Below, one piece after another: positions 2,776-16,773 of a DNA stretch of 64,000 nucleotides. Source of the stretch: an uncultured Nitrososphaerota archaeon (GTDB taxonomy: Archaea; Asgardarchaeota; Njordarchaeia; Njordarchaeales; Njordarchaeaceae); NCBI GenBank assembly GCA_964518475.1, contig CAZFGR010000001.1, forward strand, positions 224,001 to 288,000, given 5' to 3'. The number at the start of each line of letters is the position of its first letter. The first letter of the stretch is position 1. A program made the translations under genes and the position numbers. The notes beneath the pieces were generated by a model, which ran no database searches, had not been told where the DNA came from, and saw nothing but the letters and a program-made list of their open reading frames with translations.

Positions 2776-2865
2776 GCCGCGGTAGCTCAGTGGTAGAGCG
2801 CGGGACTCGTAAAGCATACTCGAGAAATCCCGAGGTCGCGGGTTCGAATCCCGCCCGCGGCTCCA
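2776..2865 (+). tRNA. tRNA-Thr(CGT) with 15-nt intron (2812-2826) at 37/38, CCA encoded
   Basis: Cloverleaf with GCCGCGG/CCGCGGC acceptor, TTCGAAT T-loop, BHB motif CTCG/CGAG with TAA and AAA bulges, T73 discriminator. Confidence 0.93.
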
Positions 2866-5895: not shown

Positions 5896-7911
5896 ATGTA
5901 CCGCGATGAGACTATGTCATCACCAGACATACTAGCTATTTTAAAAGAATTAAAAATATTGGAGAACGCAACTATTGACAATTTATATCAGCAGGATAAA
6001 CTAATTAGCTTAAAAGTTAGGACGCAGAAGGGTACAAAGCTTCTCTTAATAGAACCAAGTGTCAGAATACATTTCACAGAAACGATCATTAACTGGCAAG
6101 CAACAAACTTCATTCTAATGATTAGAAGACACCTCAATGATAAGAGAATTCTAGAAGTTAAGCAATACATGTTTGACAGAATTATTGAGATTCTCTTAAG
6201 TGAAGGCTATCGCATAATAGCCGAAATCATACCTAGAGGAAACTTCATAGTAACAAAGAATAGCAAAGTACTTTTTGCATTAGAGCATGTCCATATGCGA
6301 GACAGAGCTATATATCCGGGAGCTACTTTCAAGTACCCTCCAAGAAGTCCAGAAAATCCCCGAAATCTTTCAATAGAACAATTTAAACAAATATTACTGG
6401 CAGGAAAAAACATTCTACACGGTTTATTAAGAACAGGTATCGGGAAAAAATACGCATTAGAAGTCTGCTACAGAGTAGGTGTGGATTGCGAGAAAAAACC
6501 TAATGAAATCTCGGAAGAAGACATAGTTTCAATTTATGAATGCTTAATAAAGATACTTGAGATCATTGAGAGAGAAAACCTTTCTCCTCGCGTGTATATG
6601 AAAGAAAATAAAGTAGTAGCGTTCGCGCCGATTGAGCTAAAATATTTCGAAGAAAACGGCTATGAGAAAGGATTATTCCCTACATTTAGCGCTGCTTTAG
6701 ATTTCTATTTCAGTAAACTTCAGACAGAAAAACCTGAAACAACCCTTATAGCCACGCTAGAAAAAGAAAAAAAGAAATTATTAGCAAGGATAGATAGTCA
6801 AAAGAAGAGAATAGAGGAACTATTGTTAGATGAAAAAAGAGCTAGAGAATTAGCCGAAAAAATCTATGAGAATCTCCCGATCCTACAGTCGATACATGAA
6901 ACCATAAGAAAAGCGAGACTAGAGAAAAAACTTGAATGGGATGAAATAATAGCCCGTGTTAATGAGGGAAAGAAATTAGGTCTCAAAGAGGCATTAATGA
7001 TTGAAAAAATATCTCGTGATGGAAAAATCCATGTGAAACTGAACTCTCACAAAATAGTCCTAGATATTCGAAAAAATCTCCATGAAATTGCTGAAGAATA
7101 CTATCAGAAGGCTAAAAAAATTCGCGAAAAAATAGAAACTGCTAAGAAAGAACTTGAAAAATCCCTCGCCGAGCTTCAGTTATTAGAGGAGAAAATCAGG
7201 AAAGAACTGGAGGAAGAGCGAATAATCATAAAAACTAGGCCAAAACAATGGTATGATTCATTTTATTGGTTCATCTCAAGTGATGGTTTCTTAGTAGTTG
7301 CTGGTAGAGATGCTTCCTCAAACGAAAAACTCGTAAAAAAATACTTAACAGAGAAAGATCTCTTTCTGCACGCCGAGATCCACGGAGGCGCAGCAGTAGT
7401 TATAAAGAATCCAGAGGGAAAAGAGATCCCTCAAACAACTCTAGAGGAAGCAGCCATATTTGCTGCTGCTCGATCCAAAGCTTGGCAAAAAGGTTTAACA
7501 GCAATAGACGTTTTCTGGACGCCCCCGGACAAAGTCTCGCTTACACCACCCTCTGGTATGTATAGACCAACAGGCGCTTTCATAATAAAAGAAAGAAATT
7601 ACCTCCATAACGTTCCATTAAAACTCGCTATCGGAGTAAAAATTGTTCGAGAAAACGACGAGGTAATCATTGATCTACTAGCTGGACCACCAACTGCAAT
7701 AAGAAAATTAACAGATCTCTACGTAGTAATCGTTCCCGGAAATTGGAAGAAGAGTGCTGTTGCGAAGAAGATTATTGAAATATTATTAAGAAAAGCCGGG
7801 AACGATCCCGTAAAGTTAAAAGCCGTAAAAAGTATAAAGTTGGAGAGGATCATTGAGCTTATTCCTGGTCCTTCCCAAATCCTAGAATCTGGAGATGAGA
7901 GTAATGACTAA
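5896..7911 (+). CDS. rqcH: Ribosome quality-control factor Rqc2/NEMF (NFACT family)
   Basis: FDRI, EIIPRGN, long coiled coil, WYDSFYWFISSDG.LVVAGRDA..NE and HAEIHG motifs. Confidence 0.95.
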   Translation: MYRDETMSSPDILAILKELKILENATIDNLYQQDKLISLKVRTQKGTKLLLIEPSVRIHFTETIINWQATNFILMIRRHLNDKRILEVKQYMFDRIIEILLSEGYRIIAEIIPRGNFIVTKNSKVLFALEHVHMRDRAIYPGATFKYPPRSPENPRNLSIEQFKQILLAGKNILHGLLRTGIGKKYALEVCYRVGVDCEKKPNEISEEDIVSIYECLIKILEIIERENLSPRVYMKENKVVAFAPIELKYFEENGYEKGLFPTFSAALDFYFSKLQTEKPETTLIATLEKEKKKLLARIDSQKKRIEELLLDEKRARELAEKIYENLPILQSIHETIRKARLEKKLEWDEIIARVNEGKKLGLKEALMIEKISRDGKIHVKLNSHKIVLDIRKNLHEIAEEYYQKAKKIREKIETAKKELEKSLAELQLLEEKIRKELEEERIIIKTRPKQWYDSFYWFISSDGFLVVAGRDASSNEKLVKKYLTEKDLFLHAEIHGGAAVVIKNPEGKEIPQTTLEEAAIFAAARSKAWQKGLTAIDVFWTPPDKVSLTPPSGMYRPTGAFIIKERNYLHNVPLKLAIGVKIVRENDEVIIDLLAGPPTAIRKLTDLYVVIVPGNWKKSAVAKKIIEILLRKAGNDPVKLKAVKSIKLERIIELIPGPSQILESGDESND

Positions 7912-8713
7912 GCTCCTTCTCGTTCGCGACTTTGTTAGAGAATACACAAAAGTTGATAAAGACGATCTAATTCCGCAAGCATACTGGACTCTAGAGAGTA
8001 GAAAAGACACTCATCTAGTAGTTACAGAGGAAGATGAGCCCATAGGTATCGTTTCTTATAGAGATTTTCTTAGAGTTCTTACTGATAGAGCGCGGAGAAG
8101 GCACATTGCAAAACTTCACGTATCTAGCTTAATGACTGAAAAACTAATAACAATTGACGAGACAGCATCTATCAGGGAAGCTTGTGAATTAATGCTTCAA
8201 AAAAACATCTCCAGCGTTCTTGTGACAAAAGGAGAGAAAATAGTAGGAATAGTAACTAAGCGCGATATCCTTCAAAAAATCGATTTACTACCGCCAAAGA
8301 CGGTTAGAGAACTCATGACTCCAAAAGATGAAGTAATCGTTGCTTCAAGCGGAACAAAAATAACTGGTGCTGAACAAATAATGCGAGAAAACAATATAAG
8401 TACACTCCCAATAGTATCTGGTGATCGATTAATAGGTTATATCGACATTCATATCTTATCGCGATTTCTAATGGATCTCTTCCTTGATCCGAAATCAAGA
8501 CACCCCGAAAAAATGTTGAAAGAAGTAACTATCGGCGACATCATGAAAGGTCCAGTATACGTCTTACTAGAACAGTCAATACAAGAATTTGCCAAAGAAG
8601 TCCTAAGAAAACACACTAAAGGAGCAGCAGTAGTACTATCAGAGGAGAATATGAGATTAGAGGGCGTAATAACCGACACAGATATCACAAAGTACATTTA
8701 CTTAGAACTCTAA
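7895..8713 (+). CDS. Tandem CBS-domain protein
   Basis: Four CBS repeats (GIVSYRDF, GIVTKRDI, GYIDIHIL, GVITDTDI). Confidence 0.9.
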   Translation: MRVMTKLLLVRDFVREYTKVDKDDLIPQAYWTLESRKDTHLVVTEEDEPIGIVSYRDFLRVLTDRARRRHIAKLHVSSLMTEKLITIDETASIREACELMLQKNISSVLVTKGEKIVGIVTKRDILQKIDLLPPKTVRELMTPKDEVIVASSGTKITGAEQIMRENNISTLPIVSGDRLIGYIDIHILSRFLMDLFLDPKSRHPEKMLKEVTIGDIMKGPVYVLLEQSIQEFAKEVLRKHTKGAAVVLSEENMRLEGVITDTDITKYIYLEL

Positions 8714-8741: not shown

Positions 8742-8840
8742 TGGCGGGCCCGGCGGGACTCGAACCCGCGACCGACGGCTTTCCCCGCCACTAATTACTG
8801 TTAGGAGGCCGCCGCTCTATCCTAGCTGAGCTACGGGCCC
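8742..8840 (-). tRNA. tRNA-Arg(CCT) with 21-nt intron at 37/38, CCA encoded
   Basis: Reverse complement reads GGGCCCG...GCGGC-CT-CCT-A|intron|A-GCCGT...CGGGCCCGCCA; BHB with central helix CTCC/GGGG. Confidence 0.92.
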
Positions 8841-10623: not shown

Positions 10624-10773
10624 TGGTGGGCCCGGGCGGATTTGAACCGCCGACCTCCCGGTGTCTGAGACTATCTAGACTCCGAAGCTATTTATGACAC
10701 TTGACACTTATTATTTTTATCAGGTGAGGCCTCTTATCAGCCGGGCGCTCTAGCCAGGCTGAGCTACGGGCCC
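10624..10773 (-). tRNA. tRNA-Ile(GAT) with 72-nt intron (10663-10734), CCA encoded
   Basis: Reverse complement reads GGGCCCG...CCCGG-CT-GAT-A|intron|A-CCGGG...CGGGCCCACCA; CTGA/TCAG central helix with 3-nt bulges. Confidence 0.92.
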
Positions 10774-13921: not shown

Positions 13922-14728
13922 TTAAAGAATGCGGGGCGCCAGTAGGTAAACTAATTCTGTTCCTCCACCTACCATGAAAGTCATCTTAAGTGGCATGTTC
14001 TTAGAATACTCTATTCTAACGACATCTGCTACCTTAGCGGCTCTTATGAATTTTCTAAGGAAGTCTAATGAGTATAAGGCCTCTGCATCATTTTTTATCT
14101 CGTATTGGACAACAGTGTCCTCTCGTTCTAAGGGTGCTACATATTCATAAAATCCACCTGTTTCGCTCTCAGCGATAAAACGCATTTCTTTTGTATCACT
14201 CGTAGTAACTAATCGTAGATCCTCTCCCACAACTTTAGCATCTGAGATTATGTCATTGAGGAAACTAGCAGGGGCGAACTCTACTAGTACGTCATACTGT
14301 AACTCCTTAACGTTTATCCTAGCTTCTTCAGGGATCTCTATAATTGGTAATGCGAAAGTCCTTTGTAATGATCGTTCGTCAAGGGTCCCCCTGAAGAAAG
14401 TGATTGCAAAGAATTGTCTATTTCTTTCCTTTCTGAGAGATAGTAATATGCTATCCTTTGCCTTTCCTCGTTGGAAAACTTTTTTCAACTCTCCAAAATT
14501 TACACCAATAACTATTGTGTCTCCATCCTCTGGGGGTTCAAAATCGTACTTGTGAAAAACATTAGCCGGCATTTTTAATATAACCATGGCCACTCTTGAT
14601 TCATCAATTGCAGAGAATTCGATACCATCTTCTCGAACATAGAAATTGCCCTCACTAATGACACCAGATATTGCCGCGATAATCTCTCTTAGCGTTTTCG
14701 CTTCATCATAAGCAGCTTCCCATCTCAT
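13922..14728 (-). CDS. pcn: PCNA sliding clamp
   Basis: AIDESRVAMV, YSLDFL, MPLKM and C-terminal YLLAPR. Confidence 0.93.
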   Translation of the reverse strand: MRWEAAYDEAKTLREIIAAISGVISEGNFYVREDGIEFSAIDESRVAMVILKMPANVFHKYDFEPPEDGDTIVIGVNFGELKKVFQRGKAKDSILLSLRKERNRQFFAITFFRGTLDERSLQRTFALPIIEIPEEARINVKELQYDVLVEFAPASFLNDIISDAKVVGEDLRLVTTSDTKEMRFIAESETGGFYEYVAPLEREDTVVQYEIKNDAEALYSLDFLRKFIRAAKVADVVRIEYSKNMPLKMTFMVGGGTELVYLLAPRIL

Positions 14729-15039: not shown

Positions 15040-15203
15040 CCCGCCCCCGAGGTTTCCGTGTTCGGAATGGGAACGGGCGTGACCCCTCCCCTGTGGCCGC
15101 GTCCCCCTTTAAGGAGGACGCAGCAAGGGCCTTTCCCGCGCCCTCGCGGAGCGCGGTACTCGGTCCCTCGTGGGAGGGCTTAGCTTCCGGCCTCGGGGGC
15201 GGG
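15040..15203. repeat. Perfect 13-bp inverted repeat (15040-15052 / 15191-15203) forming the processing stem around the permuted 5S
   Basis: CCCGCCCCCGAGG and CCTCGGGGGCGGG are exact reverse complements. Confidence 0.95.
15054..15184 (-). rRNA. rrf: 5S rRNA, circularly permuted gene (3' half 15184-15113, linker 15112-15108, 5' half 15107-15054)
   Basis: Contains loop C CCCATTCCGAAC, helix II GGGAGGG/CCCTCCC, GCTAAGC, loop E AGTA/GAAA and a 12-bp helix I, but in permuted order. Confidence 0.93.
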
Positions 15204-15240: not shown

Positions 15241-15256
15241 ATTTTTAAATTTTATT
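15241..15256 (-). promoter_or_regulatory. Putative BRE/TATA promoter of the 5S precursor
   Basis: Minus strand reads AATAAAATTTAAAAAT about 20-25 nt upstream of the leader. Confidence 0.45.
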
Positions 15257-15420: not shown

Positions 15421-16773
15421 TTATATGAATTTCTTAACTCTAGCTAATCTCGGGAACGGTAAAGTGTCTCGAATATGATCTAATTTTAGTATCCACATAA
15501 GCAGTCTTTCAATACCTAATCCGAAACCACTATGAGGAACGCTTCCGTATCTTCTTAGATCTAGATACCAATCATAATCCCTCGGATCGAATCCTTCAGC
15601 TTTTATCCTTTCGATTAAAACATCTGCGTTATCTTCTCTTTGACTACCGCCTATTATCTCCCCGTAACCTTCAGGAGCCAATAGATCTGCTGATAAACTT
15701 ATCTCTGGTCTTTTCTCGTCAACCTTAACGTAGAAGGCTTTAAGATGCGTGGGAAAATGCGTTAAGAAGAACCATTCTCCAATCTCTTCTGAAAGTATCT
15801 TTTCTTCATCTCCTCCAATATCATCTCCCCATTTTATTTTCATACCTTTGGATTGCAGAATCTCTATTGCCTCATCATATTTTACTCTTTTAAACGGTGG
15901 TTTTACTTCTTCTAAGGAATCCAATGAGCCCCTAAATTCCTGAATTATTTTCGAGACTACATCATTTTCAAGCAGTTTCTGGATGATGAGGTAGATAAGC
16001 TCCTCTTCTACCTTTAAAATATTTTCGAGATCATACCAAGCAGCTTCAGCTTCAAGGTGCCAATATTCTGCTAAGTGCCTTCTAGTTCTCGATTTTTCGG
16101 CTCGGAAAGAGGGAGTAAGACTCCAGACTTTTCCCAAAGAGAATATCATAACCTCCAGATATAGCTGGGCTGATTGTGAAAGATAGACCTTTGAATTGTC
16201 GAAATAATTGACGGAGAATAGCGTTGCACCTCCTTCACATGCTGTACTGACTAGAATCGGTGGGGAGACTTCATACCAACCATTTTTTCGGAAATATTCT
16301 CGTGCTGCATGTAATAATGCGTCTCGTACGACCCATATTTTGGTATATCTGAGAGAGCGAATCGCTAGATGCCTCCATCGCATAAGGACATCGGGCGGTT
16401 GTTCTTTTTTCCCCAAGGGGTATGGAGACTCGGCCACACTCGTAATCTCTAAGTCTTTTACTATGAGCTCCTCTCCTCCGGGAGCTCTAGGATTCTTGAC
16501 TAATTCACCCCTTACAACAACTGATGATTCCTGTGAAACACGCTCTAGAAGATTCCACTTATTATCTGGTAACACACCTTTTTTGGCGACAGCCTGGAGG
16601 ATTCTCCATGGAAAATCGGTAGTCCTCATATCTAAGAAGATTATTTTACCATGTTCCCTCTTCTTTACAACCCACCCTTTAAATTCTAGCAATTTATCTG
16701 TGCTCGTCATCTTAAATACCGCATGTAAAATCATACTTGCCTTGCTGTTTAATGTGTAACTAAACCAACTCAA
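15421..16773 (-). CDS. asnS: Asparagine--tRNA ligase
   Basis: OB-fold, CEGGATLF, FRAEKSRTRRHLAEYWHLEAE, EIIGGSQRE and PHSGFGLG; real start probably the ATG near 16709. Confidence 0.93.
   Translation of the reverse strand: MSWFSYTLNSKASMILHAVFKMTSTDKLLEFKGWVVKKREHGKIIFLDMRTTDFPWRILQAVAKKGVLPDNKWNLLERVSQESSVVVRGELVKNPRAPGGEELIVKDLEITSVAESPYPLGKKEQPPDVLMRWRHLAIRSLRYTKIWVVRDALLHAAREYFRKNGWYEVSPPILVSTACEGGATLFSVNYFDNSKVYLSQSAQLYLEVMIFSLGKVWSLTPSFRAEKSRTRRHLAEYWHLEAEAAWYDLENILKVEEELIYLIIQKLLENDVVSKIIQEFRGSLDSLEEVKPPFKRVKYDEAIEILQSKGMKIKWGDDIGGDEEKILSEEIGEWFFLTHFPTHLKAFYVKVDEKRPEISLSADLLAPEGYGEIIGGSQREDNADVLIERIKAEGFDPRDYDWYLDLRRYGSVPHSGFGLGIERLLMWILKLDHIRDTLPFPRLARVKKFI

What the first reader, a model, noticed from the sequence alone, without database searches (positions are those of the whole stretch)
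15040..15203. Circularly permuted 5S rRNA gene that splicing-type cleavage and ligation would restore as a circle
Seen in sequence (minus strand, 5'->3'): CCCGCCCCCGAGG-CCGG-AA^G-CTAAGCCCTCCC...loop E...GCTGCGTCCTCC-ttaaa-GGGGGACGCGGC...GCCCGT-TCCCATTCCGAAC-ACGG-AA^A-CCTCGGGGGCGGG. The normal 3' half of 5S comes first. The natural 3' and 5' ends of helix I are joined by a 5-nt loop, and the gene is opened at the bulged AA of helix III. A perfect 13-bp stem encloses the unit and is followed by a 3-nt AAA bulge, a CCGG/ACGG helix (3 Watson-Crick pairs plus G.A) and AAG. This is a relaxed bulge-helix-bulge/loop motif. Established: archaeal EndA cuts after the second nucleotide of each bulge and RtcB circularises the excised piece. 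Applying that rule gives ...GAACACGGAA|GCTAAGCCC..., exactly the canonical 5S junction, in a 131-nt circle (126 nt if the linker is removed). The short CGGAA duplication at both ends is thereby explained. Analogous permutation is known for Thermofilum tRNAs, Thermoproteus SRP RNA and some organellar 5S rRNAs. I am not aware of a gene-level permuted, splicing-dependent 5S in archaea. Inference: the tRNA-splicing machinery is needed to make 5S here, the mature 5S may stay circular, and standard annotators will miss or truncate the gene.
Basis: partly seen in the sequence, partly recalled or inferred. Interest (0 to 1): 0.96.

Follow-up and report, generated by a model that had tools for sequence, protein, structure and literature searches.

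The report
Back-to-front 5S rRNA gene, splice-repaired
This hot-vent Asgard archaeon (Njordarchaeum group) encodes its only detectable 5S ribosomal RNA with the back part first, between flanks shaped like a tRNA-intron cut signal, so a working 5S most likely arises only after the transcript is cut and its ends are joined, probably into a 131-nt ring.

Summary
Window 15040-15203 (minus strand) holds a circularly permuted 5S rRNA gene. Its order is 13-bp leader arm, CCGG, AAG, 5S 3' part, TTAAA cap on helix I, 5S 5' part ending ACGG, AAA, 13-bp trailer arm.

Rfam misses it: two sub-threshold partial hits. The in-silico rejoined molecule gives one full-length 5S hit. No colinear 5S was found in this genome or in its order.

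The flanking stem covaries at 13 of 13 pairs. In 23 loci the best stem/4-nt helix/3-nt bulge geometry predicts the canonical 5S junction, in two different registers. The genome encodes two EndA paralogues and RtcB.

A model of the permuted gene hits 84 of 151 Asgard genomes in 20 of 27 families.

No RNA run holds this window's locus. In a Hodarchaeota relative with the same register, RNA contigs from three studies wrap a 120-nt cycle joined at the predicted cuts.

Whether the ring is the ribosome's final 5S is not shown.

This scan has reported the same thing many times on other Asgard DNA. I found no publication describing it.

The parts
15242..15249 (-). TATA-like box TTTAAAAA, 39-46 nt upstream of the outer stem (putative own promoter; inferred)
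   Evidence: A TTTAAA(A) box lies 33-49 nt upstream of the stem in the other members of the genus, whose flanks are otherwise diverged. A TATA-like box sits 18-48 nt upstream in 18 of 22 loci. The context is AT-rich, so this is weak evidence.
15191..15203 (-). Leader arm of the 13-bp outer (processing) stem, CCCGCCCCCGAGG
   Evidence: It is perfectly complementary to 15040-15052. All 13 pairs show changes on both sides across 15 loci, and 93% of cells are paired.
15187..15190 (-). Leader strand CCGG of the central 4-nt helix of the BHB-like motif
   Evidence: It pairs with ACGG at 15056-15059 as 3 Watson-Crick pairs plus G.A. Three pairs are invariant. The fourth is A-U in family f2, G-U in G005 and G-C in L180.
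15184..15186 (-). 5' bulge AAG; the predicted cut lies between 15185 and 15184, so G15184 becomes the first nucleotide of the excised RNA
   Evidence: Follows from the geometry rule. The same position is the observed RNA joint in relative L130.
15113..15184 (-). 5S rRNA 3' part (about Rfam model positions 52-120): 3' strand of helix II, helices IV/V, loop E, 3' strand of helix I
   Evidence: Helices covary.
15108..15112 (-). TTAAA cap loop joining the ancestral 3' and 5' ends of helix I
   Evidence: In relatives the cap is often a UNCG or GNRA tetraloop: 11 of 23 loci.
15054..15107 (-). 5S rRNA 5' part (about model positions 1-51): 5' strand of helix I, loop A, helix II, helix III and loop C, ending ACGGAA
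   Evidence: ACGG at 15056-15059 serves both as the 3' strand of helix III and as the central helix of the motif.
15053..15055 (-). 3' bulge AAA; the predicted cut lies between 15054 and 15053
   Evidence: The equivalent position is the observed joint in L130.
15040..15052 (-). Trailer arm of the outer stem, CCTCGGGGGCGGG

Best explanation
This is the organism's single detectable, functional 5S rRNA gene, written in circularly permuted order and probably transcribed from its own promoter. In the primary transcript the leader and trailer pair into a 13-bp helix. That helix continues into a relaxed bulge-helix-bulge motif: a 4-nt central helix CCGG/ACGG and two 3-nt bulges, AAG and AAA. The tRNA-splicing endonuclease (two EndA paralogues, alpha/beta-like) cuts after the second nucleotide of each bulge. 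RtcB then joins G15184 to A15054. This discards the leader and trailer and recreates the universal 5S junction ...CGGAA-GCUAAG... (Rfam model positions 51/52). Helix III, whose 3' strand was held by the leader, can then form. The product is a 131-nt covalently closed RNA with a capped helix I. The ring most likely serves as the 5S rRNA itself. Shown here: the permutation, selection on the structure, the motif geometry, the lack of another detectable 5S gene, the enzyme genes, and the joined RNA in a relative. Inferred: cleavage and ligation in this organism, the enzymes responsible, and persistence of the ring in the ribosome.
For: 1) Permutation. Native DNA gives two partial hits in swapped order; the rejoined sequence gives one full-length 72.5-bit hit.
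2) Only detectable copy. RF00001 finds nothing else in the own genome, which is 91% complete. No colinear 5S was found in the 14 genomes of the order. Closed relatives G014, G024, G034 and G037 have only permuted loci. The permuted-gene model R1 hits this genome once.
3) Selection on structure. 92.9% of cells are paired, against 66.9% when shuffled and 36-52% when slid. The outer stem has 13 of 13 pairs with compensatory changes, and 5S helices II, IV and V also covary.
4) Geometry. An unbiased scan of 23 loci for the best stem + 4-nt helix + 3-nt bulge always predicts the junction CGGAAG(Y/A)YAAG. It does so in two registers: GGAA|GYTAAG with bulges AAG/AAA, and GGA|AGTYAAG with helix CGTG/CACG. 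This outcome is expected only if the cut-after-second-bulge-nucleotide rule is what selection sees.
5) Machinery. There are two EndA-domain genes, 215 aa with a strong catalytic domain and 203 aa and divergent, plus RtcB. All three tRNA genes in the window carry introns.
6) Not a misassembly. The locus is held in runs from 17 studies. Model R1 hits 84 of 151 Asgard genomes at 47 bits or more.
7) RNA in a relative. Hodarchaeota locus L130 has the same register and also a mismatch at the fourth central pair. RNA contigs from three studies are 150 nt, which is 120 + 30, the length of a k=31 cyclic unitig. They run from 7866 straight on to 7985, the predicted cut sites, and do not cover the flanks. 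A contig from a run whose type is not on record (probably DNA) is colinear with the genome.
8) A capped helix I is compatible with active ribosomes. Engineered E. coli cp5S links the native ends with a 4-nt connector (PMC7283268).
9) Precedent. The permuted SRP RNA of Thermoproteus is cut by the splicing endonuclease and circularised (PMC4731332).
Against: No RNA data exist for this organism.

The motif is relaxed. The fourth central pair is G.A and there is no inner helix h' after the 5' bulge, so a strict EndA would not cut it.

Forming the central helix means displacing the lower part of native helix III. In ViennaRNA the motif-constrained fold is 5.4 kcal/mol above the unconstrained minimum.

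In one search the shorter side of each wrap-around piece is 23-27 letters, under the tool's own 31-letter criterion, and its joint table listed nothing. Contigs cannot show RNA ends, so ring versus reopened form is undecided.

The genome is a 91%-complete MAG with 5.8% contamination, so an unassembled second 5S cannot be strictly excluded.
Confidence: 0.8

Rival explanations
1. Circular intermediate only. The transcript is cut and joined as above, but the ring is then reopened in or near the TTAAA cap. The ribosome would then receive an ordinary linear 5S with normal helix I ends, as is generally assumed for archaeal circular pre-16S and pre-23S rRNA.
For: Archaeal 16S and 23S rRNAs pass through BHB-dependent circular intermediates that are widely believed to be relinearised (PMC12918454). 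Contig data cannot show RNA ends.
Against: Cap loops have no conserved sequence or length that could act as a processing signal. Eleven of 23 are extra-stable UNCG or GNRA tetraloops on 7-13 bp stems, which looks like a permanent cap. The RNA contigs of the relative are unbranched cycles that include the cap. Ribosomes tolerate a capped helix I.
Confidence: 0.13
2. Linear permuted 5S. The flanks are trimmed, by EndA or other nucleases, but the ends are never joined. The ribosome would use a 5S with a nick at the helix III / loop B boundary, as proposed for permuted organellar 5S rRNAs.
For: Permuted 5S molecules are reported in organelles (PMC4267664). No ligation evidence exists for this organism.
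Against: Two different motif registers both restore the canonical junction exactly after joining. That would be pointless if no joining took place. RNA of the relative contains the joined sequence, which is not in its genome.
Confidence: 0.04
3. Artefact or dead locus: a misassembly, or a pseudogene, while a normal 5S gene lies in the unassembled 9% of the genome.
For: The genome is an incomplete MAG, and rRNA genes often fail to bin.
Against: The same layout was assembled in runs from 17 studies. It occurs in 84 of 151 Asgard genomes, including closed chromosomes that lack any colinear 5S. All helices covary and conserved loops are intact. The literature reports that 5S could not be predicted in closed Heimdallarchaeum genomes (PMC8813620).
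Confidence: 0.02

Closest known systems
Permuted, circularised SRP RNA of Thermoproteus tenax and T. uzoniensis (Plagens et al. 2015, PMC4731332)
   Same: A gene-level circular permutation of an essential structured RNA. The termini lie in a motif cut by the tRNA-splicing endonuclease, and ligation restores the functional fold as a circle.
   Different: The RNA here is 5S rRNA, a ribosome component. The trait is spread over most families of a whole phylum rather than a few species. For the window's organism neither cleavage nor circles have been shown experimentally.
Circularly permuted tRNA genes (Cyanidioschyzon merolae; Thermofilum pendens), cited from my own knowledge and via PMC4267664
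   Same: The 3' half is encoded before the 5' half. Leader and trailer form a BHB, and maturation passes through a circular RNA.
   Different: Permuted tRNAs are reopened by RNase P and tRNase Z to give linear tRNAs. No such reopening signal is visible here, and the ancestral ends are closed by a stable hairpin cap.
BHB processing stems and circular pre-16S/pre-23S rRNA of archaea (PMC12918454, PMC7758197)
   Same: A long leader-trailer helix carries a BHB. EndA excises the rRNA and the ends are joined.
   Different: Those genes are colinear, and the joint lies outside or at the edge of the mature rRNA. Here the joint lies inside the conserved core (model 51/52) and is needed to create the 5S sequence at all. 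PMC12918454 states that 5S rRNAs are not processed in this way.
Permuted organellar 5S rRNAs (Valach et al. 2014, PMC4267664)
   Same: 5S with ancestral ends closed and new ends elsewhere. These genes are also missed by standard models.
   Different: They are organelle-encoded, have no BHB motif, and no ligation is proposed.
Engineered cp5S in E. coli 23S-5S hybrid ribosomes (PMC7283268)
   Same: The native 5S ends are linked by a short connector, and the ribosomes remain active.
   Different: It is artificial, and it is opened in loop C or D and tethered to 23S rRNA rather than closed into a ring.

Membership tests
5S rRNA (Rfam RF00001) | Full-length match to the family profile above threshold | tested here: inconclusive
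   Native DNA scores 24.5 and 21.1 bits against a cut-off of 38, so it fails. Infernal could not be run on the rejoined sequence. As a surrogate, an HMM of 54 normal archaeal 5S genes gives one full-length hit of 72.5 bits on the rejoined sequence.
5S rRNA (Rfam RF00001) | Helices I, II, IV and V supported by covariation; conserved loop A, loop C and loop E sequences | tested here: met
   Helix II has 5 of 7 pairs with compensatory change, helix IV 6 of 6, helix V 6 of 7 and helix I 5 of 12. Between 87% and 100% of cells are paired. The invariant columns include loop C and the junction sequence.
5S rRNA (Rfam RF00001) | Presence in the large ribosomal subunit | not testable with these tools
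   Needs ribosome purification or cryo-EM.
Archaeal bulge-helix-bulge (BHB) splicing motif | Two 3-nt bulges on opposite strands, each 3' of a central 4-bp helix | tested here: inconclusive
   Bulges AAG and AAA are in the correct positions. The central helix has 3 Watson-Crick pairs plus G.A in this window. It has a full 4 pairs in family f2, G005, L180 and all O-type loci.
Archaeal bulge-helix-bulge (BHB) splicing motif | Flanking helices h and h' on both sides (strict hBHBh') | tested here: not met
   Helix h is present as the 13-bp outer stem. No h' can be drawn after the 5' bulge. The motif is therefore of the relaxed hBH-loop type, not a strict BHB.
Archaeal bulge-helix-bulge (BHB) splicing motif | Cleavage by the splicing endonuclease after the second bulge nucleotide | not testable with these tools
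   Two EndA paralogues are encoded. The RNA joint in relative L130 lies at exactly these positions. The enzyme acting there was not identified.
Permuted RNA genes matured by circularisation (Thermoproteus SRP RNA type) | The 3' part is encoded upstream of the 5' part, with the ancestral ends fused | tested here: met
Permuted RNA genes matured by circularisation (Thermoproteus SRP RNA type) | RNA molecules carrying the joined new ends | tested here: inconclusive
   Met for Hodarchaeota relative L130 in RNA contigs from three studies, with short sides of 23-27 letters. No RNA run holds the window's own locus.
Permuted RNA genes matured by circularisation (Thermoproteus SRP RNA type) | No canonical colinear gene in the genome | tested here: met
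   None was found in the own genome (91% complete), in the order, or in closed relatives G014, G024, G034 and G037.

The most novel reading that the evidence does not exclude
In this Njordarchaeum-group archaeon, and in most Asgard lineages, the mature 5S rRNA inside the ribosome is a covalently closed circle. The tRNA-splicing enzymes are then essential for making ribosomes. The arrangement may have arisen from an intron-bearing 5S gene by tandem duplication: colinear Woesearchaeota-type 5S genes carry BHB mini-introns at the very same phosphodiester.
Probability: 0.5. Interest if true: 0.92.

Novelty: new variant of a known kind. Interest (0 to 1): 0.85.

Why it matters
5S rRNA is a universal ribosome component, and its gene is normally trivial to find. 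Authors of closed Asgard genomes reported that it could not be predicted (PMC8813620).

A permuted gene that must be cut and rejoined would explain that gap. It would make ribosome production depend on the tRNA-splicing machinery in the closest archaeal relatives of eukaryotes. It also predicts a naturally circular rRNA in the ribosome.

This window adds the hyperthermophilic Njordarchaeum group. Its motif is relaxed (G.A, no h'), and the locus shows that two different motif registers converge on the same mature junction.

In practice, genome annotation and completeness checks for Asgard archaea need a permuted 5S model.

Tried and rejected
Genome-collection pattern scan. My first anchor, TAAG, was too weak, so most of the 120 hits were ordinary 5S genes with a chance TAAG upstream. 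The scan was useful only for organism names and for a few true permuted loci.

RNA runs for the window's own locus: no RNA holder listed.

Infernal on the in-silico circle. This is not possible with the tools, which search only stored sources. I used an HMM surrogate instead.

Single-sequence MFE folding. It reproduces the outer stem and helix I but neither the canonical 5S fold nor the central helix. The motif-constrained fold is 5.4 kcal/mol above the minimum. I therefore relied on covariation.

Sigma-70 promoter and intrinsic terminator scan: nothing found, and not relevant to archaea.

ARAGORN mis-reads the intron-bearing tRNAs.

Reading the CGGAA repeat at both ends as a duplication relic. 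I rejected this as sufficient because in family f2 the leader is CCGA opposite TCGG. It is complementary to the 5S strand, not a copy of it.

Placing L107 in Asgard. Rejected: its spliced 5S is 89% identical to a Woesearchaeota 5S.

Literature searches for a described archaeal permuted, circular or intron-bearing 5S found none.

Full report
**What is in the sequence**

On the minus strand of window 15040-15203 the order is as follows:
- a 13-nt arm CCCGCCCCCGAGG at 15203-15191;
- CCGG at 15190-15187 and AAG at 15186-15184;
- 72 nt that match the 3' part of 5S rRNA, 15184-15113;
- a TTAAA loop at 15112-15108;
- 54 nt that match the 5' part of 5S, 15107-15054, ending ACGGAA;
- one more A at 15053;
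- the perfectly complementary arm CCTCGGGGGCGGG at 15052-15040.

**Is it a permuted 5S?**

Rfam at gathering threshold reports only three intron-bearing tRNAs in the whole window. At relaxed threshold RF00001 gives two sub-threshold hits at the locus. One scores 24.5 bits and really matches only the 3' part. The other scores 21.1 bits for model positions 28-51 at 15054-15077.

I could not run Infernal on an edited sequence, so I built an HMM from 54 ordinary archaeal 5S genes. On the native locus it gives two partial hits in swapped order: HMM 49-118 upstream and HMM 8-54 downstream. On the sequence rejoined at the predicted cuts and reopened at the cap it gives one full-length hit of 72.5 bits.

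**Is there another 5S?**

RF00001 finds nothing else in the organism's genome, which has 121 contigs and is 91% complete. A covariance model of the permuted gene (R1) hits that genome once.

The order holds 14 genomes. Twelve have the complete permuted layout, one has it cut off by a contig end, and one (77% complete) has none. No colinear 5S was found in any of them. Closed chromosomes of relatives G014, G024, G034 and G037 also carry only permuted loci.

**Who is it?**

Record titles name a genome of the same genus as Candidatus Njordarchaeum guaymaensis. They place the other permuted loci in Odinarchaeia, Hodarchaeota, Asgardarchaeum, Atabeyarchaeia and further Promethearchaeati (Asgard) records.

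Model R1 gives strong full-length hits, 47 bits or more, in 84 of 151 Asgard genomes and 20 of 27 families. Four families (f9, f13, f14, f18) instead have an ordinary 5S above the Rfam cut-off.

The window's locus is held in public runs from 17 studies of vent and sediment samples. Misassembly is therefore not a serious option.

**Selection on the structure**

I aligned 15 loci with the window's motif register. Of all cells, 92.9% form standard pairs, against 66.9% after shuffling and 36-52% when partners are slid.
- All 13 outer-stem pairs show changes on both sides.
- Helices II, IV and V covary.
- Three pairs of the central helix are invariant.
- The fourth central pair is A-U in family f2, G-U or G-C in two loci, and a mismatch in eight loci, including this window's G.A.

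In f2 the leader reads CCGA opposite TCGG. The leader is therefore complementary to the 3' strand of helix III, not a leftover copy of it.

**Geometry test**

The archaeal splicing endonuclease cuts after the second nucleotide of each 3-nt bulge. Each bulge lies 3' of the central 4-bp helix on its strand. This is established knowledge of pre-tRNA BHB motifs.

I scanned 23 loci blindly for the best stem + 4-nt helix + 3-nt bulge arrangement. I did not use the 5S sequence in the scoring. Every locus then yields the canonical junction CGGAAG(Y/A)YAAG and a circle of 120-131 nt.

There are two registers:
- This window, its order, f19 and the Hod-type loci split as GGAA|GYTAAG, with bulges AAG and AAA.
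- Odin, Asgardarchaeum, f10, f11, f20 and LC30 split one nucleotide earlier, GGA|AGTYAAG, with central helix CGTG/CACG.

Two different registers converge on the same mature sequence. I regard this as the strongest sequence-level argument that cutting and joining by this rule is what selection maintains.

**Machinery**

The genome encodes two EndA-domain proteins. One is 215 aa with a catalytic domain scoring 101.8 bits. The other is 203 aa and divergent, at 31 bits. RtcB is also present.

From my own knowledge, a catalytic plus a divergent subunit is the heterotetramer architecture known for broad specificity toward relaxed motifs. That would suit this locus, which lacks the inner helix h' and has a G.A at the fourth central pair. 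All three tRNA genes in the window carry introns.

**RNA evidence**

No RNA run holds the window's locus. I therefore tested Hodarchaeota locus L130. It has the same register, the same AAG/AAA bulges and also a mismatch (A.C) at the fourth central pair. Twelve RNA runs hold it.

In three RNA runs from three studies the laid contigs are exactly 150 nt, which is 120 + 30, the length of a cyclic unitig at k=31. Each contig reads the last 23-27 nt of the unit up to 7866 and then continues at 7985 through the whole unit. Positions 7866 and 7985 are precisely the predicted cut sites. The flanks are not covered. A contig from a run whose type is not on record (probably DNA) is colinear with the genome.

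There are caveats:
- The short side of each joint is under the tool's 31-letter bridging criterion.
- The tool's own joint table listed nothing.
- Contigs cannot show RNA ends or abundance.

So the joined sequence exists in RNA of a relative. A ring is the simplest reading, but it is not proven, and nothing is shown for this organism.

**Ring or reopened?**

The cap on helix I has no conserved sequence. In 11 of 23 loci it is a UNCG or GNRA tetraloop on a 7-13 bp stem. That looks like a permanent cap rather than a processing site.

Active E. coli ribosomes tolerate 5S whose native ends are linked by a 4-nt connector (PMC7283268). I therefore favour a persistent ring, but only at about even odds.

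**Context**

The gene lies in a 690-nt spacer between a class II aminoacyl-tRNA synthetase gene (15421-16773) and a PCNA gene (13922-14728), both on the same strand. A TTTAAAAA box lies 39-46 nt upstream of the stem, and similar boxes are found in the other members of the genus. This suggests the gene has its own promoter.

**Comparison and novelty**

The mechanism is the one shown for the permuted SRP RNA of Thermoproteus (PMC4731332) and for permuted tRNA genes.

It differs from archaeal 16S/23S circular intermediates. The joint here lies inside the conserved core, and a recent paper states that 5S rRNAs are not processed that way (PMC12918454).

Authors of closed Heimdallarchaeum genomes wrote that 5S genes could not be predicted (PMC8813620). 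Eight literature searches found no description of a permuted, circular or intron-bearing archaeal 5S.

This scan itself has reported the same layout many times on other Asgard DNA, including notes of joined RNA in Hod-type genomes. I used those notes as leads and repeated the RNA test myself.

Noticed in passing
window 2776-2862 (+), 8745-8840 (-), 10627-10773 (-): All three tRNA genes found in the window carry inserts at the anticodon-loop position, of 17, 23 and 73 nt (Rfam). ARAGORN finds only two of the three genes and reports four-letter anticodons with no amino acid. The splicing machinery is clearly in heavy use in this genome.
   Followed up: partly
L140 and L025 (Atabeyarchaeia-1 chromosome), L031 (G034), L013 (G037): In these permuted 5S genes the leader carries an extra hairpin of about 30 nt between two copies of the CGTG-AGA element. 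In G037 the element is CAG-AAA. After circularisation this hairpin would itself be a BHB intron at the same junction, so the gene is both permuted and interrupted.
   Followed up: partly
L107 (about 6254-6385, minus strand) and L179 100-248: These are colinear 5S genes of Woesearchaeota type. L107 is labelled Methanosarcinales, but its spliced 5S is 89% identical to a Woesearchaeota 5S. They carry inserts of 27 nt and 37 nt with perfect BHB geometry (central helices CACG/CGTG and CTCG/CGAG). The inserts sit exactly at the phosphodiester GGA|AGTTAA where O-type Asgard genes are permuted. This fits an origin of the permuted gene by tandem duplication of an intron-bearing 5S.
   Followed up: partly
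family f12 genomes, e.g. G021:C88:199-355, G031:C158:18830-18985: Family f12 has 25 genomes of 3-4.5 Mb. RF00001 found nothing there. The permuted model R1 does hit 19 of them, at 47-87 bits over 126-157 nt. These are probably more divergent or insert-bearing permuted 5S genes.
   Followed up: no
G110 contigs C77, C90, C106, C132; G037, G079, G016, G089: Some Asgard genomes have more than one permuted 5S locus. G110 has four identical hits, three of them at contig ends. Four family f7 genomes (G016, G037, G079, G089) have two copies each.
   Followed up: no
own genome G000:C55:1173-1589, C18:30073-30752, C5:1-1212: Besides a near-full RtcB cut off by a contig start, there are RtcB fragments on two other contigs. 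One has two in-frame TAA stops. Possible causes are a split or intein-bearing gene, a pseudogene or contamination (5.8% by the quality figures).
   Followed up: no
window 13922-14728 (-) and 15421-16773 (-): The 5S gene is not linked to 16S or 23S genes. Its neighbours are a PCNA homologue and a class II (Asp/Asn/Lys-type) aminoacyl-tRNA synthetase.
   Followed up: yes
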